This document shows positions 19,378 through 55,900 of a DNA stretch of 64,000 nucleotides, in pieces. The position numbers and the translations under genes were made by a program. This stretch comes from Chiloscyllium plagiosum (Eukaryota), in the NCBI RefSeq assembly GCF_004010195.1, contig NC_057755.1:7868676-7932675 (forward strand), given 5' to 3'. How positions within the stretch are numbered: position 1 is the stretch's first letter; each line of letters begins with the position of its first letter. A model generated the notes under the pieces. It did not search any database, was not told where the DNA came from, and was given only the letters and a program-made list of their open reading frames with translations.

Positions 19378-19856
19378 CTGTAAGAATGAAAGAGAAGAGA
19401 TTAGTAGTCGGATTCCATAAAGAAATATCACGGAAATGTTTGGGAAATAGTTGGAGGTGAGTTTACAGCGAGTTTCCCAAAGATTTGTGTATAATGTAAA
19501 CGAATGGACTGCATTTTGAGGTCAAAACAACATTGAAAATTTAAAGTCTGTGCTCTTCCAATAAACTTTATATTTCACTAATAGCAAAATCTAAATTAAT
19601 TCTAGATAATTGCTAAATATTTCTTGATTCCAATCAAACATTCTGTTTGGACGCAAACATTGCATTAACATCCAAGAGTTGATTTCTTTGCTGATACCTA
19701 TCCTGGAGGCGCTGTTCAGTAAATGTGCATCATTGAGTCTGTATTCCCCAGTTCCTTCTGATGGATAAGTGACTCTGCAATGAGGATTATTCCTGAAATC
19801 TGTTACATGAACACCAAAACATTCACTGTCCAAGAAGAAAAATAACATTGTCTTAC

Positions 19857-19928
19857 CAAGAACACCAAAGGCTGCAATAAGAGGATAGTAAATGTTCTTT
19901 ATTTGGAGAATTGTAACCAAACTTTCAT
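19857..19928 (-). pseudogene. GPR139-like pseudogene, exon 1
   Basis: ATG at 19928 is one base out of frame with ...VTILQIKNIYYPLIAAFGVL G|gtaaga (phase-1 donor at 19856). Same exon structure as the intact gene. Confidence 0.8.
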
Positions 19929-30497: not shown

Positions 30498-30507
30498 TAT
30501 ATATAAA
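30498..30507 (+). promoter_or_regulatory. Candidate TATA box of GPCR gene A
   Basis: tatatataaa ~100 bp upstream of the ATG at 30603. Confidence 0.5.
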
Positions 30508-30602
30508 AAAATACTGTTTCTGTGTCAGTTCCAGTTTTGAGGGAATGCTCCCGTTCCAACAGATTGGCAGCAGCAAGGACAGGTTGTTTCACAATCAACA
30601 AA

Positions 30603-30669
30603 ATGCATCTTCCAATACAAAAGGTCGTCAAAGTATATTGCACCATCCTTGCTGTTGTTGGTATTCCTG
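30603..30669 (+). CDS. GPR139/GPR142-like GPCR gene A, coding exon 1
   Basis: ATG...MHLPIQKVVKVYCTILAVVGIP G|gtaagt. Consensus phase-1 donor that joins in frame to 37237 (G|TT AAT = GIPVN, TM1 motif). Confidence 0.85.
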
Positions 30670-33600
30670 GTAAGTCTTATAACAACTTAAGTTGCGTACA
30701 TCTCTGCATTAAATCAGACTTATTCCACTCTCTGACTCTTAATCATTTTATTTCCATCTAGCAAGGCAAATAATGATGCTAAATTCCAGTATCCTCACTT
30801 ATTGAGTTCAAAGAAATTCGTTTGATTAGTAGGTTCCTCAGTAATGTGCAGCATTACCTGTTTCTCTATACTGTGCAGAATAGGTTTACCCAGAGCCCAC
30901 CTTGATGGGGTTGGGCTGAGCAGAAGCCCTGGCTGGTCTAGAAAGTGTTTAGCAAGACCACTCTCTCTCTCTGTCTGTGGGAGTCCAAAGCCTGCTATTG
31001 GTCAGATGGGTTTATATAACAACCCACCTGTTAGTGATACCTGGTGTTTCCCATTCCTTGATGGGAAGGGATTGTGTTGGGGGTCTTGCTCAGGCAGCTC
31101 GCTCTAAATAGGCCCAGATACAACAGGTGGGCAACGATCGAGTTGAACAAGTTATTACAGAGTGAGAAGAGAATGTCAGCATGGATAGCTTTGACCATCT
31201 TGTCTGTTGTTTTCAGTCAGTGGATGTGTGGGGGCATGATATTTGTGAGGATAGTTCACTGGGAGGGCCGTTGAACATAGGATTCCAATTATGATGTGTA
31301 ATGTTGGATTATTTGATTGGCAAAAAGACGAGAGAGTTGTGCCATTTGTAAAACGGTGGACAGTGCTGTGGTGTGGAGTTTACTAGGACAAATACTGAGA
31401 TCTGGAGTACAGTGGTAACAGCTCTCACACAGAGGAACAAACAACATTGTCTAACAGGATGTTTCCCATGTTGCACTTTGTTGCTGTTACCCTTTGATGC
31501 TCCTGGAGCAATACTGGTCAATGTGAAGGGGCTCCCACGTACATTCGTTTGGGATTGTTATTTGGACTTTGATTACCAGTTTGAATAAGTGTTATTATTA
31601 TTTTGATTATTGTTATGGTTATTTGTGCGTACCTTTAGGTGAATCCTATGGATATATTTTAAAACCAATTCAATGTGAGACCATAGAGTTACACCATGGA
31701 GGGCAGTATCCCGTCAACTTTGCGAGATCTCTGTTCTTTCACCTGGTCCACGGGGCTCAGAACGGTGGAGATTGCGTGGTACAATAGGGTTTTTCACTGA
31801 TGAATGGCAAGTTGGTTTTGGGTGACTGGTGTGCGATTTAGGATATTTGATATCGTTGTGTTCCTCCAAGGGTCAATCGGGATCAAAAACATCCGGCCAT
31901 ATGGACTGATTGTTAGCTCTGCTGTTGGCATGTTCAGTTGACCTGATGCTCAGGACTCAGGGACTTGTTGAGTTGGATAATATATCTGGGTCACCGGTTG
32001 ATTCATGCCCATCCATAGCACACTGCTAAAAGAATATGAATTATAGATGTATATTGTTGAATCCTTTGATTGTCAAAAAGATATGTATGTTGTACTGCCT
32101 CATTATCCTGGATTGAATGATGTTCTTGGCCCACAACATGGCACGTCATTGCACCAAGTGTCACACGGGATGTCTGTCCAAATAGTGAATGTGGTTTATA
32201 GGTGGGGTGTTTATAGGAGGTCACATATCGATACTGTGTAAAGCCACCCTGTTTCTTAGCTGTTGAAGTTTGGAAATTGTGTAGGGGGGTGGGAATGAGT
32301 TAGTATCGAAGGGATTCGTTGTTGCCAGCTCACAGTTGGATGTTTATAAATGTTTGTAGCATTCTAAACACTGAGCTGTTCACTCCCACAGCACACTCTA
32401 AATGTCAGGGCTGCTACACTAACCCTGCCGGGTGGGAGACATCTGGCACAATGTGTTTTACATCAGGGGAGTAACACAGTGGATCAAACTCTTTGATGCA
32501 ATAACGTCCCCTTTCTTCAATTCCAAAATAGTTCACTTGACAGAAAATGTTATTGTTGGAGTGTTGGTTGGAAAAATATCAGATGAGATTCATGTGGCAT
32601 TCGATAAGACTGTAAGAATGAGAAAACATGGCTGCCATAGAGCCACAGGTTAGTGCAGTACAGAAGACTGAATCAACAGCAATAGCAACAACAAAACAGA
32701 TACTGCTGGGAAAGGTCAGCAGGTCTGGCAGCATCTGCGGAGAGAAATCACAGGAAACGTTTCAGATTCAGGAGCAGTATGCAATGGATTGCAAATCGGA
32801 AATCTTTGCAGCTGGCTGCATATGTTTGGCGCTTAATTTATAAAGTGAAATGTCCCAGTAAATATAAACAGATGTGATAGTTGTTATGAAATTAAAATGG
32901 CAGATTAACAACGTTAGTTCAATGAAGTGCCCTGTACAAATATTTTGTTGACCCAAATAATATTGTTGGTACTGATTAATTTTCCAGCAAGGTTAGGACA
33001 AGCTTGGGGATGTGGCTACATTAATTTACTACTTGTACGTTATTAATCTTGGATTTACAGCTGGACTGTTTCACATTAGTATTTGATTGGAATTGGATGA
33101 ATAACCGTTGAATCTGCTTTTCATAATCTGCCCACAGTTAAATTTCGAGTGTTCGCTGCTCTTCACTTTGAGGTGTGTGTCCTCCTTGGGAGGAGGAAGT
33201 GAACCGTTAATCAGTGAAAAGTCAATCAGCTTTAAGACAATATATAAAAATAAAAATACAAATGAATGGGAATACAAATGTCTGTTTCACCAAATAACTA
33301 ACTTTACTAACTGCAATATTAAGATTATGGTTGATAATTAAATTGGGGAGAATCACCTCGAATTGACAGTCCAGAATTCCGAACATTTAACATGGTGCTT
33401 TAATATACCATACAAGCCTCTACCTCTACCAAGTGCTCTAACGCTGAAGAAGTATTCCACATTAATGAACTTCATTTGCCATTTCTTTTAGTAGTGTAGA
33501 TATTCTTTCCGTATCTACGTCACAAAGTTCTTTATATCTAGACGTGTCATTGTACTTTATGTCAATAACATTGCTCACAAGTCCAGTTTCCAGCATTAGG

Positions 33601-34149
33601 TGCATTTCTGTTACTTTAGTATGATAGTGACAAACGTTCCGACTCGGCCAGGAGCCCAAACTCTGTCACTCGTTGCTTGTTTATTCTACTGTAACCTCAT
33701 ACCTTCCGACACAGCCACATGTTGCCTGACCTTTCCAGCTCAACATTATGTCCACTCTGACTTCCAGCATCTGCTGTGCTTACCATCTCCACATGTTAAC
33801 TCTGTAATGCACCAAACTCAGAATTGTTTACCTTACATTTACAGAAGGATTGATGATCTGTTCCTCAATTACTTATTTTTCCAGTTAACGTTTAATTCCT
33901 GAAAAGAAATCTTCAGCTCTTAAACATATTAATTCTGAGCACATGCTCACAATAAGGAACCCTTGAAAAACTGAACTCAATGAGATTGCAACACTCTTTT
34001 GTTTCATCCTGACCTTAGGTGGAATTGGTTAGGGCTTCTGGAGGTCAGTCATCTTAGTCACCATGCATCTCTGCTGGCTTCTGCATGGTGGTACTTTGAC
34101 CCTAAAATCTGCAGCTGCCTCTATGATGCCCTTCCTTTATCATAATTTC

Positions 34150-34705
34150 AAAATTAGAGATATAGATGTACCTTGAATTCCAGCATCAACAGATGTCTGT
34201 CTTTATCAATACCATGGACTAACCATTGATGAGAAAATGACCTGGCCCAGCCACACAAGTGCTGTAGCCACAGCAGTATGTCAGTTACTCTGATAACTGT
34301 GACAGTAAGCTCCCTGACTGCCTCTATAATCCATGTCCACTATCCAAAAGCACAGGTCAGGACTGGGATGGAATGATCTCCATCTAATGGCTGAGTGCAG
34401 CTCAAATGCAGCATTGAGTGTAACACTCACAGATCTCCACATTGTACAGGACAGACAACTGGTCCTAGTGATTGGCACACATATCATTTAGTACTCACTC
34501 TCTTCACCAATGACATCATGACCAGCAATGAAAATCATCAACATGATGCAAACCAGTGCAAGTCTCATTTGAATAGCACTTTCCATGATCTCTCGGCAGA
34601 ACAAGGACAGTAGATGCAGAGAAACACCATCACATGCAAGTTCTCTTTCAAACTAGATTTAATTCTGACTGAAAAATATTGTCATTCCTTCACTGTTGCT
34701 GGGTA
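34150..34705 (+). mobile_element. L2-like LINE 3' fragment (duplicate at ~46020-46565; similar at ~59240-59660)
   Basis: Resembles the recurrent shark L2-type tail (accattgatgagaaa..acctggcccagccac ... gcagaacaaggacagtagatgca..gaaacaccatcacatgcaagttc). No intact ORF. Confidence 0.5.
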
Positions 34706-34709
34706 AAAA

Positions 34710-34992
34710 GATTAGATTAGATTACCTACAGCATGGAAACAAGCCCTTCGGGCTAGCAAGTTCACACCAACCCTCTGAAGAGTAATCCACCCAGACACAT
34801 TCCCCTAACAATTTAGGATAGCATGACAATTTAGCATGGCCAACTCACCTGACTGCACATATTTGGATTGTCGAAGGAAAGCTGCACAGACAATGTGCAA
34901 ACTCCACACAGACAGACGACTGAGGCGGGAATTGAACCTAGGTCGCTGGTGCTGTGAGGCAGCAGGGCAAACCACTGAGCCACCATGCCATC
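34710..34992 (-). mobile_element. HE1/V-SINE-type SINE (duplicate at ~46600-46815)
   Basis: Reverse complement of the head ggatggcatggtggctcagtgg...gctgcctcacagcaccagcgacctaggttcaattcccgcc; (ATTAG)n tail. Confidence 0.82.
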
Positions 34993-35987
34993 CTGACTCT
35001 GCAACTGTACCCCAGAAACACAGTGGGCTTTCCTGTATCTCAGGCAATGTAGATGTTCAAAAAGGTAGATCTCCAATCCCATCAGAAAGGTGAATAGAGC
35101 TGGGCAATGAATATTGGCCCAGCCACGAAAGCTCACATTCCGGTGGGATATTTAAAAATAACGCCCATTACAACATTTGCAAGAGGATATTTCTGAACCC
35201 GAGAGGTGGCTAATGTCTCGGAGAATGTTTCGTTTGGCAGAGAGAAGGAGAAATGTCTTGGCTGAAAGAGTGGATGTTTGGTACTGAGCGGATAATCCCT
35301 ATCATAGCTTATTTTACCAAATCCCATAACTTTCCTAATTCTTAATGGTTTCAACGCCAGGAGACCGATCTTATTGCCTCAGTTTTCTTTGCTAAGTACT
35401 GGTCTGTGTGTTAATGTTTCAAACTCCGGTAAACTACGGTGATTTGAGTGGACAATCCCTTGTCTTCAAAACTGGATCAAATTTGGAGTGGATCATTTTT
35501 TATCTGTGATAATGGACTCAGTATGGGGATATCCAATCCCAGATAAAGATCGAAAAAGGAAGCAGTTGGCGGCAGTACAGAGTTGGCTGTGCATGTGGAG
35601 CTTCATTTTCTTTTTTTCATTGAAGGGATGTGAGTGTCGCTGGTTTGGTCAACATTCACCTCCTTTCCCTAATTGCCCAGAGGGCAGGTAGCAGTCAATC
35701 AGGTTATCGTGGGTCTGGAGTCACACGGTGGCGAGACGAGGTAAGGATGACAGATTGTCTTCTCTGAAGGACATTAGTGAACGAGATGATTTTTCTTCCT
35801 GACAACTGTCAATTATTTCATTGTCATCATTAGACTCATAAAAATTCCACCATCTGCTATGGGGAATGTTGAACCCAGCTCCCCAGATCATTAGCTAAGT
35901 CTATTAATTAACAGTCTCGATATAGTCCCATTAGGACATTATCCTCCAACATCTTTAGTAATGGTGTGAATCCACAGAGATTCAAGA

Positions 35988-36300
35988 TTGGCACAATAGT
36001 TAGCATTGCGGCCTCGCAGTGCCAAGGACCTTGAGTGACTTTCTGTGTGAAGCTTGTACATTCTCCCCATGGCTTCATGAGCTTCCCCTGGGTGCTCTGG
36101 TTTCCCCACACAATCCAAAGGTGAGCAGGTTAGATGGGTGGCTAAGCTAAATTGCCCTATAGTTCCCAGGATATCTGGTTAGGTGAGTTAATCATGATAA
36201 AACCATATGCATTGGGTGAGGTCTGGTTAGAATGCTGTTCAGAAGTGTGCTGCAGATTCGATGGGCCGAATGACCTCTTTCCGCACAATAGGGTTTCTAC
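35988..36300 (+). mobile_element. HE1/V-SINE-type SINE (duplicate at ~47808-48135)
   Basis: ggcacaatagttagcattgcggcctcgcagtgcca...ggtttccccacacaatccaaag...gatgggccgaatgacctc. Confidence 0.75.
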
Positions 36301-37236
36301 GATGTTATCATAGAAACAGACTCTGATGATTGCCATGGAGAATGCTGATTAGGTGGTGAAGATTCCGAGCCCCAGTGTGTTCTCTGAATCTGAGAGGGGG
36401 ATCTCTATTCACAAGGAGAGGTGATTTGGAACATGAGCCTGGACACGAGGCAGGAAGGTTTGCTTAAACTCTGATAAAATGTGTGATTTCTAAACCAGAA
36501 AGTTGCTATGAACAATGCAGCATGGATTCAGGTTATATTTGAGTGGGAGCTATAGTATACAGTACAGCCATGTGGGAGAGTCCCTGTCAAATGTTGCAGT
36601 GCCTATGGTTTCAGTGGGTATGCAGCTTGTGATATGATGGTTCGATTCATTGCTGGATACTTCTGTGGTACAGATTGTCAGGATGCTCAATCCTGTCCAC
36701 GAGGGAGGGACTCAATGCCCTATCAACTGTTCATCAACAGTCATTCCTGGACAGTGTGGATTGATTTAATGTCATTCATATAGTGTGGGTATACACTTCA
36801 GGGGACACTCTGAGCCGTGGAGGCTCCAAAACCAAAGACAGAAATTTTTCAATCAATGTCCACGTTAGGTGCATCCCATTCATTGTTTTATTGATTTGAG
36901 GTGTCCTGATGTGGATGTTGTGATCTCAGGGGAATCTCGAGCCAGTCTGAGTAACCTATAAACCAGGTGAAATCAACCACTGCCAACCCCCCCAAAAAAA
37001 ATAATTGAGCACATGGCTGTGCCTTGTGTGCACAATTTGCTGTTCTCATTCTTCCCCTTCTTTTTAAATTGCAAATGATTCATTTTGAGAGAGCTTGCTG
37101 CTATGGTTCAGATTCTTTAAACTTCATATGACATGGAGCAACATTTATCTTTGTGCTATTATTTTCAGTCTAAGCTCAGGCACGGAGAATGTTTGATCAG
37201 TAACTTCAAGTCTTTCTCTCTCTCTCTCTTTTGCAG

Positions 37237-38120
37237 TTAATCTAGTGGTGATTGTAATCCTAGCTCGGCAGAAGTGTGGTCTTTCTACATGCATCACTCA
37301 CTATCTGGTGGCCATGGCAGCGTCTGATCTACTGTTCACTATTGTTTATTTCATCTTTCGCCGATTCCCTTACTATTATTTTCCACTGTGTTTCCTGGAC
37401 ATCACTCCTGTTTGTACTGTTGTCTATGTCCTTCACGTCTTGCTCATTGATTGCTCTGTCTGGTTCACTGTTGCTTTTTCTTTTGACCGATTTGTTGCGA
37501 TTTGTTTTCATCAGATGAAAGCTAAGTATTGTACAGAGAAAACTGCAAAGTGGGTTGTAGCAACAATCTGCATTTTCTTTTCTTTAAAGAACATTCCCAA
37601 CTACTTTCGATATATACCTCAAAAGATTATCAACAATGTTCCATGGCACTGTAAAACAAGGCTCAGTTATTACAATGACCGGTGGGAAAGTTTTCAATAC
37701 TTTGAACATTTTTTAACACCAATGTTACCATTCACTTTTATTTTCTTTCTCAACGTTCTGACTGCCAGACACATCTTCGAGGCTGTGAAGATGCGTAAGG
37801 GACTGAGGGGCCAGAGAAAAACAGAGAATGACCCAGAGACAGAGAGCAGAAAAGATTCTGTGATTTTACTGTTTGCCATTACCACCAGCTTCATACTTCT
37901 GTGGATTCTATGTGTTTTAAGGTTCTTTCGAGCTGGTGATTCCTTGAATTACGCTAATTATTTGCTCTTTGAAGAAGTCGGATATATGCTGCGGAACCTC
38001 AGTTGCTGCACAAATGCGCTTATTTATGTGGTGACGCAGAAAAAATTCAGAGACCAGTTAAAGTATGCAGCAAAATATCCAGTTATAAAAATAATTCAAT
38101 TGGTGAATAAATCCAAGTAA
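37237..38120 (+). CDS. GPR139/GPR142-like class A GPCR gene A, exon 2 (spliced protein 316 aa, 7TM)
   Basis: (CT)n-ttttgcag acceptor at 37236 and an open frame to TAA 38118-38120. Motifs YLVAMAASDLL (TM2), SVWFTVAFSFDRFVAIC (DRY equivalent), ECL2 Cys, LPF (TM5), SFILLW (TM6), SCCTNALIY (NPxxY equivalent) and KFR (helix 8). Confidence 0.92.
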
Positions 38121-38939
38121 CTGACAGACAAGATTAGACACAGCAGATAATGGAATGACGAGTCCACGTGAGGCATGTGCAGAAGGAGAAGGAGGAACAC
38201 CAACGTGACAACACTCATTTTCTAATGGGTAAGGATGACTCAATCTGAGGGACAAAACAAAAGCGACTGCAGGAACAAAGCCAGTGTAACGTGCTGTCAG
38301 CAAGGAACAACAGTTAGTAGAAAGCTGAACAACAAAAGCAAAACTGAAAGAGGAGTTAGACATGCACCAAAGATACAATCATTCGAAGCAATCCGTTCTC
38401 TGTAGGTGACACGGACACATAAATAAATGAACTGGAGGAACGGATCATCGTTCACTATCGGCCCAGAGTGTAAGACGCAGCGACAGAGTCCTTTCCACTC
38501 TTCCTCACTGAATTAACTGATCCACACATCGTGACAAAGAGAGGAAAAAACAAAGAGTGTTATAAGGAGAAAATAATTCTTGTAAAAACATTCTGTGCCC
38601 TTTGATTGTAAGTTTACTTTCAACAGTAATTTACTTCATTTTCATTCAATCTCTAGTATCATTCTGTTTCTTTAATCCTGCCTTTCCATGAACTAGCTGA
38701 TGGGTTAGTGGGGAATCCAAGGCCAACCAGACGGACTTCTGGACTCTCTCTCTCTGCAGCTCTCAATGACCCAGCTACCCTTTCGATTTAAGATGCTCCT
38801 ACAAATCTGCCTCTTTATATCAGTTACTGTCACCTGACCTAACATCACGTTCGGTGGGTGAACATCAGCTCTGTTTAATTTGTCATGATAAATGTCTTTA
38901 TAAAATGTCTTTGGGGATTATGTTGAGTTAAAGTGGACA

Positions 38940-39011
38940 GTGATGGTACTGTCGTGGTGAGTATAACTGCCTTCCAAGCAGGTGAACTGGGTTTGATTCA
39001 CGGCAATGGCA
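38940..39011 (+). pseudogene. tRNA-Gly(TCC)-derived pseudogene
   Basis: gtggtgagtataactgccttccaagcag...gggtttgattcacgg matches vertebrate tRNA-Gly-TCC. The anticodon arm is intact; acceptor, D and T arms are mismatched. Confidence 0.75.
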
Positions 39012-39549
39012 AGTTGTGATTTTAATATTGATCAACGGGAAATCGAAAAGAGGAATTTGATCAGGATGAGAATATATACAGTTTTCATCCCAAGACGATA
39101 TTTTCCCACAACCCAATCCCTGCCTCCTTCTAATCCTTCTAATCCCACCAAGAATGACTCTGGCTGTGATCCATCTCTGGGGAAGTCGACCCACAGAAAG
39201 AGAGAGCTGGGAGCTGACTGAATGAGCTGGGTCTTGGGTGGAATGGGCGTCTATGAGTGACAGACCTGGGGGTATTTCGAATAGGTTCTGGCAACCACTG
39301 TCCCTTTCACCATGTGCACTGAGCAGGGAGTGAGTATCTGTGTGTTTCTGTCTGTATGTGTGTGAGGGTGTGGGGTGTGTTTTAATGTCAATCCCAGTTG
39401 GATCCTTTAATACTCCCCATTCCCTCCCTGAACCGTCTCCTCCTGGAGCAGGGTATGTCCACAATGGGAAAGAGGGAGTGTGAGAGACCCTCGAGTGAGC
39501 TGCAACCAACTAGAATGGAGAGTATCACCACATTAATCTCACCATGTCT

Positions 39550-39795
39550 TTCCTTAACTCCTGTTTATCTCTGAGTGATCCTCTTTTCTGTCTATCTCTT
39601 ATACATTCCACTTCTCTCTCAATCTTTTTTCTTTCTCACACTATCTCTCTCTTTTTACTGATACCCTTTCTTTTTGCCTTTTTCTCTCCTACTTCGTCTT
39701 TCGACTTGTGGATATTTTTCCCACTCTCTTCCTTTCTTTCTTCTCGTTTCACTTTCTCTCTATCTTTCTTTCCTTCCCTATTTTTGTCTTTCAAT
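39550..39795. repeat. Pyrimidine-rich low-complexity tract (duplicate at ~51420-51640)
   Basis: Almost exclusively C/T on the plus strand. Confidence 0.8.
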
Positions 39796-40089
39796 CCTGA
39801 AACTGCAGCCCTCCAACACCAATTTTACGCACCCCACTTCCTCAAATTTTGCAGTCCCACAAACTTAGCACCCCCCCTTCCATTGTCCTGTCTAATTGCC
39901 CTCCCCGTGGGTCTTTCTTCTCCCTTGAACTGCGCATTCTGTACTTCCTACATTACACATCCACTGTATATCAGAGACCCTCTGTGTCTCCATACATCCA
40001 CAATACTCTCCATTCCATGTCCCTGCCCCTGGGGCGGGTGACAAAAGGAGCATATGTATAGACAAAACTGTCCTTTGCCTACCTGCTGT

Positions 40090-41110: not shown

Positions 41111-41119
41111 TGCCTTTTA

Positions 41120-42820: not shown

Positions 42821-43320
42821 NNNNNNNNNNNNNNNNNNNNNNNNNNNNNNNNNNNNNNNNNNNNNNNNNNNNNNNNNNNNNNNNNNNNNNNNNNNNNNNN
42901 NNNNNNNNNNNNNNNNNNNNNNNNNNNNNNNNNNNNNNNNNNNNNNNNNNNNNNNNNNNNNNNNNNNNNNNNNNNNNNNNNNNNNNNNNNNNNNNNNNNN
43001 NNNNNNNNNNNNNNNNNNNNNNNNNNNNNNNNNNNNNNNNNNNNNNNNNNNNNNNNNNNNNNNNNNNNNNNNNNNNNNNNNNNNNNNNNNNNNNNNNNNN
43101 NNNNNNNNNNNNNNNNNNNNNNNNNNNNNNNNNNNNNNNNNNNNNNNNNNNNNNNNNNNNNNNNNNNNNNNNNNNNNNNNNNNNNNNNNNNNNNNNNNNN
43201 NNNNNNNNNNNNNNNNNNNNNNNNNNNNNNNNNNNNNNNNNNNNNNNNNNNNNNNNNNNNNNNNNNNNNNNNNNNNNNNNNNNNNNNNNNNNNNNNNNNN
43301 NNNNNNNNNNNNNNNNNNNN
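42821..43320. other. Assembly gap (500 N) at the duplication junction
   Basis: Run of exactly 500 N, probably a placeholder size. Confidence 1.
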
Positions 43321-46300
43321 ACACAGAGGATCAAACAACATTGTCTAACAGGATGTTTCCCATGTTGCACTTTGTTGCTGTTACCCTTTGATGCTCCTGG
43401 AGCAATACTGGTCAATGTGAAGGGGCTCCCACGTACATTCGTTTGGGATTGTTATTTGGACTTTGATTACCAGTTTGGATAAGTGTTATTATTATTTTGA
43501 TTATTGTTATGGTTATTTGAGCGTACCTTTAGGTGAATCCTATGGATATATTTTAAAACCAATTCAATGTGAGACCATAGAGTTACACCATCGAGGGCAG
43601 TATCCCGTCAACTTTGCGAGATCTCTGTTCTTCCACCTGGTCCACGGGGCTCAGAACAGTGGAGATTGGGTGGTACAATAGGGTTTTTCACTGATGAATG
43701 GCAAGTTGGTTTCGGGTGACTGGTGTGCGATTTAGGATATTTGATATTGCTCCGAGGTTCCAATCGGGATCAAAAACATCCGGCCATACGGACTGATTGT
43801 TAGCTCTGCTGTTGGGATGTTCAGTTGACCTGATGCTCAGGATTCAGGGACTTGTTGAGTTGGATAATATATCTGGGTCACCGGTTGATTCATGTCCATC
43901 CGTAGCACACTGCTAAAAGAATATGAATTATAGATGTATATTGTTGAATCCATTGATTGTCAAAAAGATATATATGTTGTACTGCCTCATTACCCTGGAT
44001 TGAATGATGTTCTTGGGCTCACAGCAGGGCACATCATTGCACCAATTGTCACACGGGATGTCTGTCCAAATAGTGAATGTGGTTTATAGGTGGGGTGTTT
44101 ATAGGAGGTCACATATCGATACTGAGTAAAGCCACCCTGTTTCTTAGCTGTTGAAGTTTGAAATTGTGGAGGGGGGTGGAAATGAGTTAGTATCGAAGGG
44201 ATTCGTTGTTGCCAGCTCACAGTTTGATGTTGATAAATGTTTGCAGTATTGTAAACACTGAGCTGTTCATTCCCACAGCACACTGTAAATGTCAGGACTG
44301 CTGCACTATCCCTGTTGGTTGGGGGTTATCTGGCACAGTGTGTTTTACATCAGGGGAGTAACACAGTGGATCAAACTCTTTGATGCAATAGCGTCCCCTT
44401 TCTTCAATTCCAAAATAGTTCACTTGACAGAAAATGTTATTTTTGGAGTGTTGGGTGGAAAAATATCAAATGAAATTCATGTGGTATTCGATAAGACTGT
44501 AAGAATGAGAGAACATGACTGCCATAGTGCCACAGGTTAGTGCAGTACGGAAGACTAAGTCAACAGCAATAACAACAACAAAACAGATACTGCTGGGAAA
44601 GGTCAGCAGGTCTATCAGCATCTGTGGAGACAAATCAGAGTTAACGCTTCAGATCCAGGAACAGTATGCAATGGATTGCAAATGGGAAATCTTTACAGCA
44701 GGCTGCATATGTTTGGCGCTCAGTTTACAAAGTGAAATGTCCCAGTAGATATAAACAGATGTGACAGTTTTATGGCAGATTAACAACGTTAGTCCAATGA
44801 AGTGCCCTGTACAAATATTTTGTTGACCCAAATAATATTTTTGGTACTGATTAATCTTCCAGCAAGGTTAGGACAAGCAAGGGGATGTGGCTACTACTTT
44901 TTAGTAGTAATTTACTACTTTTACGTTATTAAGCATGGATTTACTGCTGGAATGTTTCACATCAGTATTTGATTGGAACTGGATGAATACTTGTTGAATC
45001 TGCTTTTCATAATCTGCCCACAGTTGAATTTCGAGTGATCGCTGCTCTTCACTTTGAGGTGTTTTCTCCTTGGGAGGAGGAAGTGAACCGTTAATTAGTG
45101 AAAAGTCAATCAGCTTTAAGACAATATATAACAATAAAAATACCAATGAATGGGAATACAAATGTCTATTTCACCAAATAACTAACTTTACTAACTGCAA
45201 TATTAAGATTATGGTTTATAATTAAATTGGGGAGAATCACCACGAATTGACAGTCCAGAATTCCGAACATTTAACATGGTGCTTTAATATACCATCCAAG
45301 CCTCTCTTTCTACCAAGTGCTCTAACGCTGAATAAGTATTCATTTGCCATTTCTCTTATTAGTGCAGATATTATTTCCATATCTACGTCACAAAGTTCTT
45401 TATATCTGGATGCGTCTGTGTACTCTATGTCAATAACATTGCTCACAAGTCCAGTTTCCAGCATTAGGAGCATTTCTCTTACTTTAGTGTGATAGTGATA
45501 AACGTTCCGACTCGGTCAGGAGCCCAAACTCTGTCACTCGTTGCTTGTTTATTATACTGTAACCTCTGGTCTTCGGACACAGCCACATGTTGCCTGATCT
45601 TTCCAGTTCCACATTCTATCCACTCTGACTTCCAGCATCTGCTGTCCTTACCATCTCCACATGTTAACTCTGTCATGCATCAAACTCAGAATTGTTTGCC
45701 TTGCATTCACAGAAGGATTGATGATCTGTTCCTCAATCACTTCGTTTTCCAGTTAACTTTTAATTCCTGAAAAGAAATCTTCAGCTCTTAAACATATTAA
45801 TTCTGAGCACATATTCACAATAAGGAACCCTTGAAAAACTGAACTCAATGAGATTGCAACACTCTTTTGTTTCGTCTTAGGTGGAATTAGTTAGGGGTTT
45901 TGGTGGTCAGTCATCTTAGTCACCATACATCTCTGCTGGCTTCAGCATGGTTGTACTTTGACCCTAAAATCTGCAGATGCCACAACGATGCTCTTCCTTC
46001 ATCATAATTTCAAAAATAGAGATGTAGATGTAGCTTTAATTCCAGGATCAACAGATTTCTGTCTTTATCAATACCCTGGACCAACCATTGATGAGAAAAT
46101 GACCTGGCCCAGCCACACAAGTGCTGTAGCCACAGCAGTATGTCAGATACTCTGATAACTGTGACAGTAAGCTCCCTGACTGCTTTTAAACTCCATGTCC
46201 ACCATCCAGAAGCGCAGGTCAGGGCTGGGATGGAATGATCGTCATGTACTGGCTGAGTGCAGCTCAAATGGAGCATTGAGTGTAACACTCACAGATCTCC

Positions 46301-49080
46301 ACATTGTACAGGACAGACAACCGGTCCTAGTGATTGGCACACAGATCATTCAGTACTCACTCTCTTCACCAATGACACCATGACCAGCAATGAAAATCAT
46401 CAACATGATCCAAACCAGTGCAAGTCTCATTTGAATAGCACTTTCCATGATCTCTCGGCAGAACAAGGACAGCAGATGCAGAGAAACACCATCACATGCA
46501 AGTTCTTTTTCAAACTAGATTTAATTCTGACTGAAAAATATTGTCTTCCTTCACTGTTGCTGGGTAAAAAGATGAGATTAGATTTCCTACTGTATGGAAA
46601 CAGACCTCTGAAGAGTAATCCACCCATAACAATTTAGGATAGCATGACAATTTAGCATGGCCAATTCACCTGACCTGCACATCTTTGGATTGTCGGAGGA
46701 AAGCCACGCAGACAATGTGTAAACTCCACACAGACAGACGACTGAGGCGGGAATTGAACTCAGGTCCTGGGTGCTGTGAGGTAGCAGCGCAAATCACTGA
46801 GCCACCATGCCATCCTGATTCTGCAACTGTACCCCAGAACACATTGGGCTTCCCTGTGTCTCAGGTAATGTAGATGTTCAAAAAGACAGATCTCCAATCC
46901 CATCACAATGGTGAATAGAACTGGGCAATGTATATTGGCCCAGCCACGAAAGCTCACATTCCAGTGGGGCATTTAAAAATAACCCCCATTACCACATCTG
47001 CAAGAGGATATTTCTGAACCCGAGAGGTGGCTAGTGTCTCGGGAATGTTTCGTTTGGCAGAGAGAGGAGAAATGTCTTGGCCAAAAGGGCGGATGCTTGG
47101 TACTGAGCGGATAATCCCTATCATGGCTGATTTTACCAAATCCCATAAATTTCTGGATTTTTAATAGTTTCAAAGCCAGGAGACCGATTTATTGCCTCAG
47201 TTTTCTTTGCTAAGTACTGGTCTGTGTGTTAATGTTTCAAACTCCGGTAAACTGCGGTGATTTGAGTGGTCAATCCCTTGTCTTCAAAACTGGATCAAAT
47301 TTGGACTGGATCATTTCATATTTGTGATAATGGACTCAGTATGGGGATATCCAATCCCAGATAAAGATCTAAAAAGGAAGCAGTTGGCGGCAGTACAGAG
47401 TTGGCTGTGCATATGGAGCTCCATTTTCATTTTTTCATTGAAGGGATGTGAGTGTTGCTGGTTTGGTCATTATTCACCACCTTTCCATAATTGCCCAGCG
47501 GGCAGATAACAGTCAATCAGGTTGTCTTGGGTCTGGAGTCACACGGTGGCGAGACGAGGGAAGGATGACAGATTGTCTTCTCTGAAGGACATTAGTGAAC
47601 GAGATGGTTTTTCTTCCTGACAACTGTCAATTATTTCATTGTCATCATTAGACTCATTAAAATTCCACCATCTGCTATGGGGAATGTTGAACCCAGCTCC
47701 CCAGATCATTAGCTAAGTCTATGAATTAACAGTCTCGATATAGTCCCATTAGGACATTATCCTCCAACATCTTTAGTAATGGTGCGAATCCACATAGATT
47801 TAAGATTAGCACAGTAGTTAGCATTGCGGCCTCACAGTGCCAAGGACCTGGGTTTGATTCCATCCTTGAGTGATTGTCTGTGTGAAGCTTGCACATTCTC
47901 CCCGTGTCTGCATGAGCTTCCTCTGGGTGCTCTGGTTTCCCCACACAATCCAAAGTTGAGCATAGTAGATGGGTTGGCTAATCTAAATTTCCGAATAGTG
48001 CCCAGGATATCTGGTTAGGTGAGTTTATCATGATTTAACCACATTCATTGGGTGAGGTCTGTTTAGAATGCTCTTCAGAAGTGTGCTGCAGATTCGATGG
48101 GCCGAATGACCTCTTTCTGCACGTTAGGGTTTCTATGATGCTATCATAGAAAGAGACTCTGAAGATTGCCATGTAGAATGCTGGTTAGGTGATAAAGATT
48201 CCTAGCCCCAGTGTGTTCTCTGAATCTGAGAGGGGGAATCCCTATTCACAAGGAGAGGAGTTTGGGAACTTGAGCCTGGACACCAGGCAGGAAGCTTTGC
48301 TTAAACTCTGATAAAATGTGTGATTTCTAAACCAGAACGTTGCAATGAACAATGCAGCATGGATTCAGGTTTTATTTGAGTGGGAGTTGTAGTACATGGT
48401 GTACGGCCATGTGGGAGAGTCCCTGCCAAATGTTGCAGTGCTTATGGTTTCGATGGGCATGCAGCTTGTGATATGGTGATTCGATTCATTGGTGAATACT
48501 TCTGTGGTACAGATTGCCAGGATGCTCAATCCTGTCCATGAGGGAGGGACTCATTTCACAATTATTTGTTCAACAACATTCATTCCTGGACAGTGTGAAG
48601 TGATTCAATGTCGTTCATATAGTGTGGGTATACAATTCAGGGGACAATCTGAGCTGTGGAGGTTCCAAAACCAAAGACAGAAATTTTGCAATCAATGTCC
48701 ATTTTAGGTGTATCCCATTCATTGTTTTATTGATTTGAGGTGTCCTGATGTGGATGTTGTGATCTCAGCAGAATCTCCAGCCAGTCTGAATAACATATAA
48801 ACCAGTTGAAATCAACCACTGCCAACCCAAAAAAAGTCATTGAGCACATGACTGTGTCTTGTGTGCACAATTTGCCGTTCCCATTCTTCCGCTTCTTTTT
48901 AAATTGCAAATGATTCATTTTGAGAGAGCTTGCTGCTGTGGTTCAGATTGTTTAAACTTCATATGACATGGAGCAACATTTATCTTTGTCTTTATTATTT
49001 TAAGTCTAAGCTCAGGCACGGAGAATGTTTGATCATTAACTTAAAGACTTTCTCTCGCTCTCTCTCTCTCTCTCTTGCAG

Positions 49081-49964
49081 TTAATCTAGTGGTGATTATA
49101 ATCTTGGCTCGGCAGAAGTGTGCTCTTTCTCCATGCACCACTCACTATCTGGTGGCCATGGCAACGTCTGATCTACTGTTCACGATTGTTTACTTCATCT
49201 TTCGGCGATTCCCTTACTATTATTATCCACTGTGTTTCCTGGACATCACTCCTGTTTGTACTGTTACCTATGTCCTTCACCTCTTGCTCATTGATTGCTC
49301 TGTCTGGTTCACTGTTGCTTTCACTTTTGATCGATTTGTTGCGATTTGTTTTCATCAGATGAAAGCTACGTACTGTACAGAGAAAACTGCATTGAGGGTT
49401 GTAGCAGCAATCTGCATTTTCTTTTCTTTAAAGAACATTCCCAATTTCTTTCGATATATACCTCAAAAGATTATCAACAATGTTCCATGGCACTGTAAAT
49501 CAAGTCGCAGTTATTATAGTGAAGGGTGGAAACGTTTTCAATACTTTCAACATTTTTTAACACCAATGTTACCATTCTCTTTTATTTTCTTTCTCAACTT
49601 CTTAACTGCCAGACACATCTTCGAGGCTGTGAAGATGCGTAAGGGACTGGGGGGTCAGAGAAAAACAGAAAATGATCCAGAAATAGAGAGCAGAAAAGAT
49701 TCTGTGATTTTATTGTTTGCCATTACCACCAGCTTCGTACTTCTGTGGTTTCTGTGTGTTTTAAAGTTCTTTCAAGCTGGTGATTCCTTGAATTACAATA
49801 ATTATTTGCTCTTTAAAGAAGTCGCATATATGCTGCGGAACCTCAGTTGCTGCACAAATGCGCTTATTTATGTGGTGACACAGAAAAAATTCAGAGACCA
49901 GTTAAAGTATGCAGCGAAATATCCAGTTATAAAAATAATTCAATTGGCAAATAAATCCAAGTAA
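49081..49964 (+). CDS. GPR139/GPR142-like GPCR gene B, exon 2 (exon 1 not visible, probably in gap)
   Basis: tctcttgcag acceptor at 49080; 884-nt open exon, the same length as in gene A. About 35 aa differences in 294 by manual count; all 7TM motifs retained. Confidence 0.88.
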
Positions 49965-50786
49965 CTGACAGATAACATTAGATACAGAAGATAATGGAAT
50001 GAAGAGTCCACGTGAGGCATGTTCAGAAGGAGAAGGAAAACACCAACGTGAGAACACTCATTTTCGAATGGGAAAGGAATGACTCCATCTGAGGGACAAA
50101 ACAAAAGCGACTGCTGGAACAAAGCCAGTGTAAAGTACTGTCAGCAAGGAGCAACAGTCAGTAGAAAGCTGGACAACAAAAGCAAAACTGAAAGAGGAGT
50201 TAGACATGCACCAAAGATACAATCACTCAAAGCAATCCGTTCTCAGTAGGTGACACGGACACATAAATAAATGTGCTGGAGGAAAGGATCATCGTTCACT
50301 ATCGGCCCAGAGTGTAAGACGCAGCGACAGAGTCCTTTCCACTCTTCCTCACTGAATTAACTGATCCACACATTGTGACAAAGGGAGGAAAACATAAAGA
50401 GTGTTATAAGGAGAAAATAATGTCTTGTAAAAACATTCTGTGCCCTTTGATTGTAAGTTTATTTTCAACAGTAATTTACTTCATTTCCATTCAATCTCTG
50501 GTATCATTCTGTTTCTTTAATCCTGCCTTTCCATGAACCTGCTGATGGGTTAGTGGGGAATCCAAGGCCAACCAGACGGACTCCTAGACTATCTCTCTCT
50601 CTGCACCTCCCAATGACCCAGCTCCCCTTTCGATTTAAGATGCTCCTTCAAATCTGCCTCTTTATATCAGTTACTGTCACCTGACCTAACATCATGTTCG
50701 GTGGGTGAACATCAGCTCTGTTTAGTTTGTCTTTACAAATGTCTTTATAAAGTGTCTTTGGGGATTATGTTGAGTTAAAGTGGACA

Positions 50787-50858
50787 GTGGTGGTACTGTC
50801 GTGGTGAGTATAACTGCCTTCCAAGCAGGTGAACTGGGTTTGATTCCCGGCAATGGCA
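50787..50858 (+). pseudogene. tRNA-Gly(TCC)-derived pseudogene (duplicate)
   Basis: gtggtggtactgtcgtggtgagtataactgccttccaagcaggtgaactgggtttgattcccggcaatggca. Confidence 0.75.
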
Positions 50859-52974
50859 AGTTGTGATTTTAACATTGATCAACCGGAAATCGAAAAGAGG
50901 AATTTGATCAGGATGAGAATATATACAGTTTTCATCCCAAGACAATATTTTCCCACAACCCATCCCTCCCTCCTTCTAATCCTTCTAATCCCAATAAAAA
51001 TGACTCTGGCTGTGATCCATCTCTGGGGAAGTCGACCCACAGGAGAGGGAGCAGGGAGCTGACTGGATGAGCTGGGACTTGGGTGGAATGGGCGTCTATG
51101 AGTGACAGACCTGGGGGTATTTCAAATAGGTTCTGGCAGCCACTGTCCCTTTCACCATGTGCACTGAGCAGGGAGTGAATATCTGTGTGTTTCTGTCTGT
51201 ATCTATGTGTGATGGTGTGGTGTGTGTTTGAATGTCAATCACAGTTTGATCCTTTAATACTCCCCATTCCCTCCCTGAACCATCTCCTCCGAAAGCAGGC
51301 CCCTGGAGCAGGGTCTGTCCGCAATGGGAAAGAGGGAGTGTGAGAGACCCTCGACTGAGCTGGGACCAACCTGAATGGAGAGTATAACCACTTTAATCGC
51401 ATCATGTCTTTCCTTAACTCTGAGTGTTCCTCTTTTCTGCCTATCTCTCATACATTCCACTTCTCTCTCAATCTTTTTCTTTCTCACACTATCTCTCTCT
51501 TTTTACTGATACCCTTTCTTTTTTGCCTTTTTCTCTCCTACTTCGTCTTTCAACTTGTGGATATTTTTCCCACTGTCTTCCTTTCTATCTTCTTGTTTCA
51601 CTTTCTCTCTATCTTTCTTTCCTTCCCTACTTTTGTCTTTCAATCCTGAAACTGCAGCCCTCCAACACCAATTTTGCACACCCCACTTTGGCAAATTTTG
51701 CAGTCCTACAAACTTCGCACCCCCCTTCCATTGTCCCTGTCTAATTGTCCTCCCCGTGTGTCTTTCTTTTCCCGTAAACTGACCATTCTGTACTTCCTCC
51801 ATTACATATCCACTGTATATCAGAAACCCTCTGTGTCTCCATCCATCCACAATACTCTCCATGCCATGTCTCTGCCCCTGTGGTGTATGACAAAAGGAGC
51901 ATGTGTAGAAACAAACCTATCTTTTGACTGCCTGCTGTAATGTTAGAGAGTTATACAGCACAGAAACAGACCCTCCAGGCCAATCTGTCCACACTAACTA
52001 TATTCCAAAAATAAGAAGTTCCACCTGCCTGTGCTTGGTCCGTATTCTTCCAAACCTTTCGTATTCATTAACTTATCCAAATGCACATCTTGAGAAGGCA
52101 AATCTTAATGGTGAGATCCTGGGAGTGTTGCTGATCAAATGCACCTTGGATTTCAGGTTCACAGTTCCTTGAAAATAGAGTCAAAGTTAGATAGGATCGT
52201 GAAGAATGCATTTGGTATGCTTTCCTTTGTTGGTCAGAGCATTGAGCATAAGAGTTGCAAGGTCATGTTGCAGCTGTACAGGACATTGGTTTGGCCAGTT
52301 TTGGAATACTGCATTCAGTTCTGGTCTCCTTCTTATCGGAAGGATACTATGAAAACTGAAAGGGTTCAAAAAAAGTCCGACAAGGATATTGCCAGTGTTG
52401 AAGACTTTGAGGCTGTATAGTCTGGGGCTGTTTTCCCTGGAACATTGGAGGCTGAGGAGAGACCGTTTAGAGATTTATAAAATCATGTGGCATGGATAGG
52501 TTCAAACAAGAGGTGATAAAGGAAAGATTTAAAAGGGACCAAACGGGCAACGTTTTCATGTAGAGAATGGTGTGAATATAGAATGAGCTGCCTGAGGAAG
52601 CGGTGGAGGCTGGTAAAATTACTGCTTTTAAAAGGCGAGGACAAACTGAGGACTGCAGATGATGGAGATCAGTGTCGAGAGTGTGGTTCTGGAAAAGTAC
52701 AGCAGATCATTCCTGATGAAGTCTTATGACCGAAACGTCGATTCTCCTGCTCCTCAGATGCTGCCTGACCTGCTGTGCTTTTCCAGCACCACAATCCTGA
52801 CTACATTTAAAAGGCATCTTTATTGGTATATGAACTGAAAGGGCTTAGAGGGATATGGGCCAAATGCTGGCAAATCGGACAAGATTTAGTTACGATATCT
52901 GGTTGGCTTGAACGAGTTGGACGGAAGGGGTTTTCTATTGCTGTTGATTTCTATGACAGTCTGCCTTTTAAACG

Positions 52975-55900
52975 TTAGAACTGTACCTGCATACATCACT
53001 TTCTCTGGCAGTTCATTCCAGCACGCAAACCACTATCTGTGTAAAAAAAAAGAGTTGCCCCTTATATCCTTCTTAAATCTTTCTCTTCTCATTTTAAAGT
53101 ATGCCCCCTACTCTTGGTAGGGAAAAGACCCTCATCGCTTATCTCTACACCTTACGATTGTATAAACCTCAGTGAGGTCATCCCTCCACCTCTCAACTGC
53201 TGTACTCAATGGTCTCAGCAATGAAGGCAAGAAATATAAATGCCTTCTTAACCACCATGTCTACCCTCTACCGCAAATTTCAAAGAATTATGTACCTGAA
53301 CCCCGAGGCCTCTCTGCTCTACAACAATGCCTTTAATTCCTGTCCTTGTGTGTTTTAATAAAATGCAATCCCTCACACGTTTCCAAATTAAACTCCATCT
53401 GATACTCCTCAGTCCATTGAACCAAATGATCAAGATCTCCTTGTAATTTTTACTAGCATTCTTCACTGACCACTTCACCACCAATTTTGTTGCCATCCAC
53501 AAACTAACTAATTATGCTTTCTATGTTGTCATCAAAATCATTTATATAAATGACAAACAAAAGTGGATCCTGAACCGATCCTGATGGAACACCGCTGGTC
53601 ACAGACCTCCTGTCCAAAAAAATACCTCTGCTATCAGTGACTGTCTGTAACCTGTCATGAAGCCAAATTTGTATCCAATTGGCAAGCTCATCCTGAATCC
53701 CATGTGATCGAATTTTACTAACTGCTCATCATACTGAGCCTTGTCAAAGGTTTTGCTGATGCCCAAGTAAACAATGTCTACCATGCTGTCCACATCAAAT
53801 ATTTTGGTCACTTCTTAAAAACTTAATCAAATTTGTGAGGCATGATTTTCCTCACACAAAACCATGCTGCCTATCCCTGTTCAATCCTTACCATTCAAAA
53901 TGCATATAAATCCCAACTTTCAGAATCACTACCAAAGTCAGACTCACAAGTCTATAATTTCCCGGCTTCTCCTTACATCCCTTCTTAAACAATGGCACAA
54001 CAGTAGCCATCCTCCAGTCCTCTGGTATTTCAAACGTGTATCTGGATGATGCAAATAATTTTGTTGCTCCACCCCCACAACTTCCTCCCCCGTGCCCCAC
54101 CATGTCATGGATACACTTGATTAGTCAACGAGATTGATCTATCTTTATGTGTTCTAAGGCCTCCAGCACTTTCTCTTCTGTCATGTTAAACCTGTTATCA
54201 AAACATCAATATTTATTTCCCTCGGTCCTCTATCAAAACTAATGCAAAATATTAATCTCCTGAGTTTCAACACAAAGATAACCTTGTTAATCTTTAAGAG
54301 GCCTTGCTCTCTGGAGATGCTGTCTGGCTCTTAATGTCGTTGTAGAATCTTTTTGGATTATCGTGAACATTATCTGCCAGGGCTATCTCACATCTCTCTT
54401 TCCCTTCCTAATTTATTTCCTCACAATGCTCCAATACTCTTTATAGCCTTCAAGAGATTCAGTTGATCCCAATTGTTTATATCCAACATATGATTATTTG
54501 TTATTCTTGACTAGAACTTCAATATCTTTATTCACCAATTGTATCATAATCTTACCAGCATTGACTTTCACTCTGACTGGAGCAACATGGTCCGAACACT
54601 CCTTACCACGCTTTTCAGGTTGGTGCCGTATTAGGAAAATTAAATTCACCTGCTATTACAACATTATTATTCTTACATACATTTGAGATCTCAACATGTT
54701 TTCTTCTCCATCTCCTTCTGACTACTGGGGGGCCTGTGGTCCAATCCCATCAAGGTGAACATCCCTTTCTTATTTCCCATTTCAAAACATAGATTTTTCA
54801 CTAAATGGCCCCTCAGTTATATCTGCATTAAGTACAGTCGTAATTGAGTATCTGTGATTCCATATCTAAATAACCTAAACTCGTCCGTTAGATTCCAATC
54901 TACAGTTCACTCCCTAGTGATGTTTAATCAGATGTGAACCATACCATACCCTTCGAATATACTCTAATCTAGAACTCACTCCGTGGTACCTGTTACTCTG
55001 TATATTGAATCTCCTCCTCCCTTCCTCAATCAAAAATGCTATCCCCCCTCCTGCCTTGCCTCTATTTCTATCCTTCCTATAACATCTGAAACCCAGAACA
55101 TTGAGCAGATTGCCTTGTCCTTGCCTCAGCCATGTTTCTGTAAACACTCAAACAGGCTAGTTCTATGTTGCCACACATACCCTGAGTTCATCAGCCTTAT
55201 CTAGATAGAAATAAATGCAGTTTAATTCTTCAGAAATACTTTGGGCTCTGAATTGCTGTTGTCTATCTTTTCTAATTATCTTGTTCTTTTCCGATTCAGA
55301 ACCATTCACATCTTTCTGTCTATTTTCAATGTTACATAGGAAAGACCCACCCTGCCCCTTCCCCAACACAAATGGTTCATAGCCTCTCGAAACAGGATAT
55401 TGGTCCCTTCCCTCTTCAGGTGAAACCCTCCCTTTGTGAACAGGCCATTTCTGTCCCAGAAGACATCCCAATGATCCTCGAAAATGAATCCCTGCACATT
55501 GCACCACCTCTTCAGCCATTGATTTGTCTGCCCTGTTCTTCCCTCATTTGATATTGGGACCGGAAATAAACCAGAGATTACAACTTGTGAAGTTCTGTTT
55601 ATTTCACCTCTTAACCAAGCTCTTCGACTCACTCCACAAAGCCCTAACCCTTGTTCTGATGATGTCATTCCCTCCCAACGTATACAACAACTTCCGGCTT
55701 CTCACTCTCCGCTTTGACAATCTGCTTCACATCTTTTGATATGTGTTTCACCCTGGCACCATCCTCGGTTCACACTTACTGCTGCTAAATCTCTTCTCGG
55801 TGCCCCTGACAGGACGGCCCCCTGTAACAATCATTCTTTACATCTTCACAAACCCATTTAACATAAGATTCATTCTTAGTGCCCAAGATCTGACTAGTAC

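What the first reader, a model, noticed from the sequence alone, without database searches (positions are those of the whole stretch)
37656..37706. Paralogue differences concentrate in the predicted ligand-facing loops
Seen: about 35 of 294 exon-2 residues differ between genes A and B by manual count. Nine fall in one 17-residue window after the ECL2 cysteine (A TRLSYYNDRWESFQYFE vs B SSRSYYSEGWKRFQYFQ at 49500-49550). Five more lie at top of TM6/ECL3/TM7 (R/K, R/Q, A/N, E/K, G/A), and several are charge changes. TM7 and helix 8 are almost identical. Inference: diversifying selection on ligand specificity, or patchy gene conversion from another paralogue.
Basis: partly seen in the sequence, partly recalled or inferred. 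Interest (0 to 1): 0.72.

Follow-up and report, generated by a model that had tools for sequence, protein, structure and literature searches.

The report
Shark receptor copies diversify pocket rim
Two neighbouring copies of a shark cell-surface receptor gene differ most in a short stretch predicted to form the entrance of the ligand pocket, likely because mild selection keeps retuning what the members of a very large, little-studied receptor family detect.

Summary
Genes A and B are tandem GPR139-like class A GPCRs of a shark. 35 of 293 exon-2 residues differ, nine of them in 37656-37706, against one synonymous change (scan p 0.003). Gene conversion is not supported: no donor was found in the genome, and the changes fall on at least two lineages. 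The family has 1,619 motif matches in this genome. In 101 intact paralogues, 10-19% of codons show dN/dS above 1. The signal survives site-rate variation and double mutations but shrinks (LRT 183 to 19-24, omega 1.4-1.9). These codons ring the pocket and match 8 of 17 GPR139 ligand contacts. Limits: the window as a whole has omega 0.87 family-wide. Only three or four of its nine differences sit at selected codons. The TM6/ECL3/TM7 group is what family rates predict (5 vs 5.0). Relaxed constraint plus chance is not excluded for this pair (p 0.04-0.40). Ligand and tissue are untested. This scan noted the family before, in this and other shark and ray genomes.

The parts
30603..30669 (+). Gene A exon 1 (ATG, 22 codons plus 1 base; first half of TM1), followed by a GT donor
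   Evidence: tblastn with N-termini of homologues; sequence and splice sites
30670..37236 (+). Gene A intron (phase 1, GT..AG)
   Evidence: splicing is inferred, no spliced read was seen
37237..38120 (+). Gene A exon 2, GPR139-like class A GPCR (Pfam 7tm_1), open to TAA
37656..37706 (+). Gene A codons 140-156: distal ECL2 after Cys45.50 and the top of TM5; nine amino-acid differences from B
37920..37982 (+). Gene A codons 228-248, top of TM6, ECL3 and top of TM7; five differences, four at family-selected codons (228, 231, 239, 245)
42821..43320 (.). Assembly gap (N). Gene B's exon 1 is missing from the window; unplaced contig C90083 (L151) carries an intact exon 1 and ends at the A-equivalent base just before the one where B resumes
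   Evidence: the placement is inferred
43321..54490 (+). Copy B of an approximately 11-kb duplicated unit (copy A 31427-42820), about 93% identical in aligned columns
49081..49964 (+). Gene B exon 2, open to TAA
49500..49550 (+). Gene B codons 140-156. Four changes are B-only; five amino-acid states are shared with unplaced paralogue C
49764..49826 (+). Gene B codons 228-248

Best explanation
A and B are tandem copies in a shark family of GPR139-like receptors with well over a thousand gene copies, and their ECL2/TM5-top cluster likely arose as point mutations, a share of which were favoured by mild, site-specific diversifying selection on the predicted rim of the ligand pocket. Shown: the duplication, the cluster, its non-synonymous character, the lack of a donor in the assembly, dN above dS at a ring of outer codons across the family, and constraint on the G-protein side (omega 0.34-0.44). 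Inferred: birth-and-death duplication supplies copies; changes at 45.51/45.52, distal ECL2, 5.36, 5.43, 2.61-2.65, 3.29-3.33, 6.54-6.57 and 7.28-7.35 would shift ligand range while signalling stays fixed; the -1 to +2 charge shift in B would favour more acidic ligands at the entrance. The other differences in the window are probably near-neutral changes in a loosely constrained loop.
For: Window: 9 non-synonymous vs 2.5 expected at the flank rate, 1 synonymous vs 0.69. Family, 101 intact genes: M8 vs M8a 2dl 183, omega 1.94 on 10% of codons; 23.5 (omega 1.37, 19%) with shared site-rate variation; 18.9 (omega 1.62, 13%) with double mutations added; 17, 56 and 64 on three thirds with their own trees, omega held at 2.0. 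21 of 23 selected codons lie in the outer half and 11 of 33 a-priori pocket positions are selected, vs 12 of 237 others. 8 of 17 GPR139 contact positions match, p 0.004 within the outer half alone (contacts from passages of PMC8807744). On the tips of 44 broken genes, not used to pick the sites, the 23 codons have omega 1.63 with ordinary synonymous rate (1.13 vs 1.11), while the window has omega 0.56 there, which argues against a mutational hot spot in the window. The excess survives CpG removal in 25 sister pairs (123 vs 65 expected; partly circular). 26 sister pairs put 71 of 532 differences (13%) in a window that is 6% of the codons.
Against: The window's family-wide omega is 0.87 and the a-priori pocket set's is 0.86. 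The M8 statistic falls almost tenfold once site rates vary. In clade cross-validation the top 20 codons give median omega 1.29 in held-out clades; 33 of 40 splits are above 1 but only 11 of 40 are significant, and their synonymous rate is raised (1.88 vs 1.45). The N/S ratio of the window vs the rest of the A/B pair gives p 0.076. Exon dS is 1.47 times the flank rate, and on that yardstick the cluster has p 0.04-0.40. Only 2 A/B differences fall on the 17 GPR139 contact positions. The whole A/B exon diverged as fast as its flanks (6.8% vs 6.7%), and 44 of 145 sampled genes are broken, so constraint is weak. PHI detects recombination in the 11-gene subclade (p 0.002), which can inflate site tests. 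The codon models are my own code, with fixed relative branch lengths and no null simulation.
Confidence: 0.6

Rival explanations
1. Relaxed constraint plus chance. Distal ECL2 is nearly neutral in a redundant, fast-turnover family, and this pair is the upper tail among many pairs, helped by one two-base mutation.
For: Window omega is 0.87 family-wide. Scan p 0.04-0.40 under neutrality at exon dS. Five of 26 sister pairs have 6-9 differences in the same window. Five of the nine differences are at codons not selected family-wide. 44 of 145 sampled genes are broken.
Against: It does not explain omega above 1 after site-rate and double-hit corrections, the match to GPR139 contacts within the outer half, or omega 1.63 on broken-gene tips. 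Scan p is 0.004-0.018 at the flank rate.
Confidence: 0.3
2. Patchy gene conversion from another paralogue wrote the ECL2 patch into A or B.
For: PHI p 0.002 in the 11-gene subclade. 6 of 18 informative sites among A, B, C and D conflict with the main split. The assembly is fragmented, so a donor could be missing. K150 is also found in L004 and L131.
Against: B's 36-base motif matches only B at up to 3 mismatches. The motif shared by B and C matches only B and C at up to 2 mismatches. There is only one synonymous difference, and it is on A's side. The changes fall on separate lineages: 6 separate A from B+C, 4 are B-only. Triplet patterns are steady over 10 kb, and no fragment is significant among 24 subclade genes (best global p 0.068, not involving A or B).
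Confidence: 0.06
3. Part of B's ECL2 sequence is an assembly or consensus error, or A and B are divergent alleles placed in tandem across the gap.
For: An N gap separates A from B. The four B-only changes are transversions within 34 bases. Contigs of three public runs show no depth at 49510-49523 at 90% likeness, although the tool warns that such a hole proves nothing.
Against: 6.8% divergence over 10 kb is far above usual allelic levels (general knowledge). There are four close exon-2 copies and four close exon-1 copies. Five of the nine differences are confirmed by independent contig C95541. The frame stays open.
Confidence: 0.04

Closest known systems
Vertebrate GPR139 and GPR142 (Trp/Phe-activated orphan class A GPCRs; PDB 7vug, 9m42)
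   Same: Best solved-structure match for the family profile (56 bits, next 38). Databases name the shark relatives 'probable GPR139'. D2.50, DRF, P5.50, W6.48 and Y7.53 align. Selected codons match 8 of 17 of its ligand contacts.
   Different: Gene A scores only 24.6 bits against human GPR139, which a review calls highly conserved across vertebrates (PMC12208981, abstract passage). The family lacks R6.51 (Y, H, C, F, D or S in all 101), which PMC8807744 says occurs only in GPR139 and GPR142. It has C3.25 (101 of 101) and an ECL2 cysteine (99 of 101), which the aligned GPR139 chain lacks. It has over a thousand copies rather than one.
GPR210A/B and a third GPR139/142-related orphan subtype of coelacanth, gar and some fishes (Rinne et al. 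2019, PMC6504862)
   Same: Non-mammalian orphans placed beside GPR139/142 (passage read).
   Different: Described as a few subtypes; the word 'shark' does not occur in the main text. Orthology with the shark family was not tested.
Expanded chemosensory and immune-sensing GPCR repertoires (OR, TAAR, V1R/ORA, T2R; MRGPR and FPR from recall)
   Same: Tandem clusters, birth and death, many pseudogenes, variable pocket and conserved inner face (recalled for those families; shown here).
   Different: A different class A lineage. Cartilaginous fishes average 43.8 complete olfactory receptor genes (PMC10869828 passage) against 1,619 motif matches here. Expression in sensory cells is untested.

Membership tests
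Class A (rhodopsin-like) GPCR | Pfam 7tm_1 above the curated cut-off | tested here: met
   66.8 and 66.2 bits vs cut-off 30.5
Class A (rhodopsin-like) GPCR | Seven-helix fold with the TM3-ECL2 cysteine pair | tested here: met
   Model of exon 2, pLDDT 70, pTM 0.59; Foldseek TM about 0.6 to peptide receptors; C59 in 101 of 101, C138 in 99 of 101. The disulfide itself is inferred.
GPR139/GPR142 orthologues | Arg at 6.51 | tested here: not met
   0 of 101 intact paralogues; A and B have Cys (PMC8807744 passage)
GPR139/GPR142 orthologues | High sequence conservation with human GPR139 | tested here: not met
   phmmer 24.6 bits, E 1.5e-4
GPR139/GPR142 orthologues | Activation by L-Trp or L-Phe | not testable with these tools
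   Needs a signalling assay
GPR210A/B | Groups with the coelacanth and gar GPR210 sequences in a tree | not tested
   Sequences were not fetched
Chondrichthyan GPR139-like expanded family | Close homologues confined to sharks and rays in the top hits, many copies per genome | tested here: met
   All 120 listed hits of 734 are from sharks or a skate, mostly 52-62% identical, one 71%; 134 scored matches in this genome; 1,619 motif matches vs 2 in the control
Chemosensory receptor repertoire | Positive selection on pocket-side residues with a conserved inner face | tested here: met
   the effect is modest (omega 1.3-1.9)
Chemosensory receptor repertoire | Expression in sparse sensory cells | tested here: inconclusive
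   A small share of two single-cell runs gave about one-fold depth of family-like reads on exon 2 in one run and none in the other; not assignable to A or B, tissue unknown
Gene conversion tract | A donor paralogue, and synonymous sites changed along with non-synonymous ones | tested here: not met

The most novel reading that the evidence does not exclude
Sharks carry an undescribed chemosensory repertoire of a thousand or more GPR139-related receptors, far larger than their known olfactory families, and A/B catch one step of its retuning: a young duplicate that switched the charge at the pocket entrance (-1 to +2) under positive selection.
Probability: 0.35. Interest if true: 0.85.

Novelty: new variant of a known kind. 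Interest (0 to 1): 0.55.

Why it matters
Selection on the pocket of an expanded GPCR family is a familiar pattern, and one pair of paralogues adds little to it. What matters is the family. Cartilaginous fishes are reported to have only about 44 olfactory receptor genes (PMC10869828) and a 'relative paucity' of GPCRs (PMC8455134), yet this genome has 1,619 matches to one family motif, with diversification at pocket-side codons. If these genes are expressed in olfactory, taste or immune cells, the view that sharks smell with a small repertoire would need revising. A, B, C and D are a small natural series (88-91% identical to A, with a defined ECL2 swap) suited to mapping specificity.

Tried and rejected
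Expression: no RNA holder was listed for gene A. Runs X1 and X2 have depth across the intron and look like DNA. X5 (2 in 100 read) gave 579 reads, nearly all on repeats, and X6 gave none. No spliced joint between exons 1 and 2 was among the joints listed (15 shown, 139 not shown). This says nothing for or against expression. Laying three contig runs and one RNA run on B's window showed no depth at 49510-49523, which is inconclusive. AU tests of segment trees against the whole-gene tree were not used, because a segment's own best tree is favoured by construction; in the same call the optimiser left omega at 2.0, so those LRTs are for a fixed value. Per-branch substitution counts from inferred ancestors are not available, so placing changes on branches rests on observed patterns among A, B, C, D and outgroups. 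The fold search did not single out a family. The atlas search returned GPR139-like and srw-like clusters only. FEL-like per-site tests (11 of 270 positive at uncorrected p below 0.05, 100 negative) are weak alone. Literature: nine searches found no paper describing this shark expansion or its selection; the library lacks most subscription journals, and I read no supplements. A conversion donor was sought and not found. A mutational hot spot was not supported. B lacking exon 1 was made unlikely by contig C90083.

Full report
Anatomy. The window holds an approximately 11-kb duplicated unit, copy A at 31427-42820 and copy B at 43321-54490, split by a 500-N gap. Each copy has an open exon 2 of 293 complete codons that scores as Pfam 7tm_1. 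A's exon 1 is 30603-30669, with a GT donor and an AG acceptor at 37235-37236. B's exon 1 is not in the window. Unplaced contig C90083 has an intact exon 1 and ends at A-equivalent base 31426, and B resumes at 31427, so it is probably B's missing 5' part (inference). All 120 listed homologues of 734 are shark or skate proteins, mostly named 'probable GPR139'. The family profile's best solved structure is human GPR139.

The observation. 35 of 293 residues differ; nine lie in codons 140-156 with one synonymous change; five lie in 228-248; 249-288 is identical. The exon diverged 60 of 884 bases (6.8%), the same as upstream (382 of 5,717) and downstream (213 of 3,201) DNA. Against the flank rate the window has 9 non-synonymous changes vs 2.5 expected and 1 synonymous vs 0.69. 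The whole exon has 38 vs 42.2 and 22 vs 15.0. Scan-corrected p is 0.0026 (uniform omega), 0.0015 (free width) and 0.012 (neutral exon at the flank rate). Using exon dS as the yardstick it is 0.04 or 0.13, and 0.14 or 0.40 if the adjacent two-base change at codons 147/148 is one event. Six non-coding spots in about 10 kb also reach 10 substitutions in 51 columns. The cluster is real; how far it exceeds neutrality depends on the yardstick. The 228-248 group is not significant alone (p 0.088).

Where the changes lie. With anchors D30=2.50, R84=3.50, C138=45.50, P164=5.50, W222=6.48 and N259=7.49 (alignment to GPR139; model), the window runs from 45.52 through distal ECL2 to 5.42. Only T140 and E156 are in my a-priori pocket list, which is recalled class A consensus. 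A/B differences lean to the outer half (19 of 33, p 0.038) but not to pocket-lining positions (5 of 33, p 0.57). 'Pocket rim' fits better than 'binding site'. The model lacks exon 1 and has pTM 0.59, so the placement is approximate.

Conversion. Two unplaced paralogues, C (C95541) and D (C49259), are 94-95% identical to A in exon 2. In the window D differs from A at three bases (codons 142 and 145, and none other non-synonymous in 140-156 beyond 142; a third lies upstream at 135). B and C share five amino-acid states, and B has four of its own. Counts are 6 vs 2.4 expected for A against B+C (p 0.034) and 4 vs 1.0 for B only (p 0.017), so at least two lineages contributed. B's motif has no other match in the genome at up to 3 mismatches, and the B/C motif matches only B and C at up to 2. 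A Sawyer-type test on 24 subclade genes found no significant fragment (best p 0.068). Against this: PHI is significant in the 11 intact subclade genes (p 0.002) though not in all 101 (p 0.98), and 6 of 18 informative quartet sites conflict. Some exchange or parallel change occurs in the subclade, but no tract explains this window.

Family. A protein search scored 134 matches among 8,050 candidates. I fetched 130 of them and 18 more from a DNA search. Three were dropped for coverage or length, leaving 101 intact and 44 broken genes, a sample biased towards A's relatives. A 20-base TM3 motif has 1,619 exact matches vs 2 for the reversed control. 56 of 101 intact and 24 of 44 broken genes carry it, so the true number of loci may be near 3,000, pseudogenes and uncollapsed haplotypes included (inference).

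Selection. I used my own MG94xREV code on codons 11-280 with a fixed tree. M0 omega is 0.55. M2a vs M1a gives 2dl 240, M8 vs M7 242, and M8 vs M8a 183, with omega 1.94 on 10% of codons. With rate variation shared by synonymous and non-synonymous changes the LRT is 23.5 (omega 1.37 on 19%). With double mutations added it is 18.9 (omega 1.62 on 13%), and codons 139, 142, 145, 146 and 150 stay above 0.9. By region, omega is 0.87 for the window, 1.31 for 228-248 (LRT 7.0), 0.76 for 37-67 and 0.34-0.44 for the inner parts. Of 23 M8 codons, 21 are in the outer half and 8 coincide with 17 GPR139 transmembrane contacts named in PMC8807744 (p 1e-5; 0.004 within the outer half). Checks that avoid circularity: with A-D masked, 9 of 33 A/B differences fall on the 23 codons (p 0.0005), and the window expects 3.6 differences against 9 seen (p 0.008; scan 0.013). 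Tips of 44 broken genes give omega 1.63 at those codons with normal dS, and 0.56 in the window; these tips include time as functional genes (overall omega 0.69). Clade cross-validation gives median omega 1.29, above 1 in 33 of 40 splits and significant in 11 of 40. The selection is real but mild and site-specific. Among 26 sister pairs under 10% diverged, the window holds 71 of 532 differences, and five pairs have 6-9 there. A/B is at the top of a family-wide tendency and is not unique.

Mechanism. Shown: duplication, an outer-face excess of amino-acid change, a constrained inner face, and no donor. Inferred: new copies are retained or lost quickly, and changes at the pocket rim that shift ligand range are mildly favoured while G-protein coupling is kept. 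In the A/B window three differences are at strongly supported codons, one is marginal (140, posterior 0.84) and five are not supported. The charge shift from -1 to +2 would alter which ligands enter; this is untested. Whether the ligands are odorants, tastants or microbial products is open.

Comparison and literature. The genes are related to GPR139/142 but are not orthologues: they lack R6.51, have the TM3-ECL2 cysteines and score weakly against human GPR139. Papers seen as passages: PMC8807744 (ligand contacts), PMC6504862 (GPR210), PMC10869828 (shark repertoire sizes), PMC8455134 (GPCR paucity) and PMC12208981 (conservation). All others were seen as search listings only. Nine searches found no description of this expansion in the held library. 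Earlier notes of this scan describe the same family in this and other shark and ray genomes. They prompted my copy count and the GPR210 check and are not independent evidence.

Verdict. Observation confirmed; interpretation partly supported. Selection 0.60, relaxed constraint plus chance 0.30, conversion 0.06, artefact 0.04. New variant of a known kind; interest 0.55, carried by the family more than by this pair.

Noticed in passing
window 18561-19893, minus strand: A third, distant family member (33-37% identical to A) with in-frame stops and a frame break in TM4/ECL2, and a short exon 1 about 0.5 kb upstream of exon 2: a pseudogene.
   Followed up: partly
gene A codon 147/148 (37677-37682): A, B and their subclade lack one ECL2 codon that most family members have, next to B's two-base change.
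   Followed up: partly
window 42821-43320; L151 (G000:C90083): An unplaced 8.6-kb contig appears to belong in the gap and holds B's exon 1; the gap is longer than its 500 N.
   Followed up: yes
window 37237-38120 vs 49081-49964: Synonymous divergence in the exon is 1.47 times the flank rate (22 vs 15.0 expected); unexplained.
   Followed up: no
window 30400-39400 and 49440-49620, runs X1, X2, X4: Public runs under one species label hold only 0.42 of A's sampled words, and at many intron positions every laid contig differs from A. A and B may vary in presence between individuals, or the runs may be of a close relative.
   Followed up: partly
family alignment, position 7.42 (A codon 252) and 5.42 (codon 156): R7.42 (94 of 101), E5.42 (86 of 101) and W5.35 (100 of 101) are conserved inside an otherwise variable pocket and may anchor a shared ligand group; B and C have Q at 5.42.
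   Followed up: no
window 1177-2371, 3456-3980, 60390-61191: Open frames that look like LINE reverse transcriptase, SGNH-like ORF1 and Penelope-like fragments (labels from recall).
   Followed up: no
window 61865-63062 and 57189-57739: Tandem repeat arrays, the first with a unit of about 45 bases.
   Followed up: no
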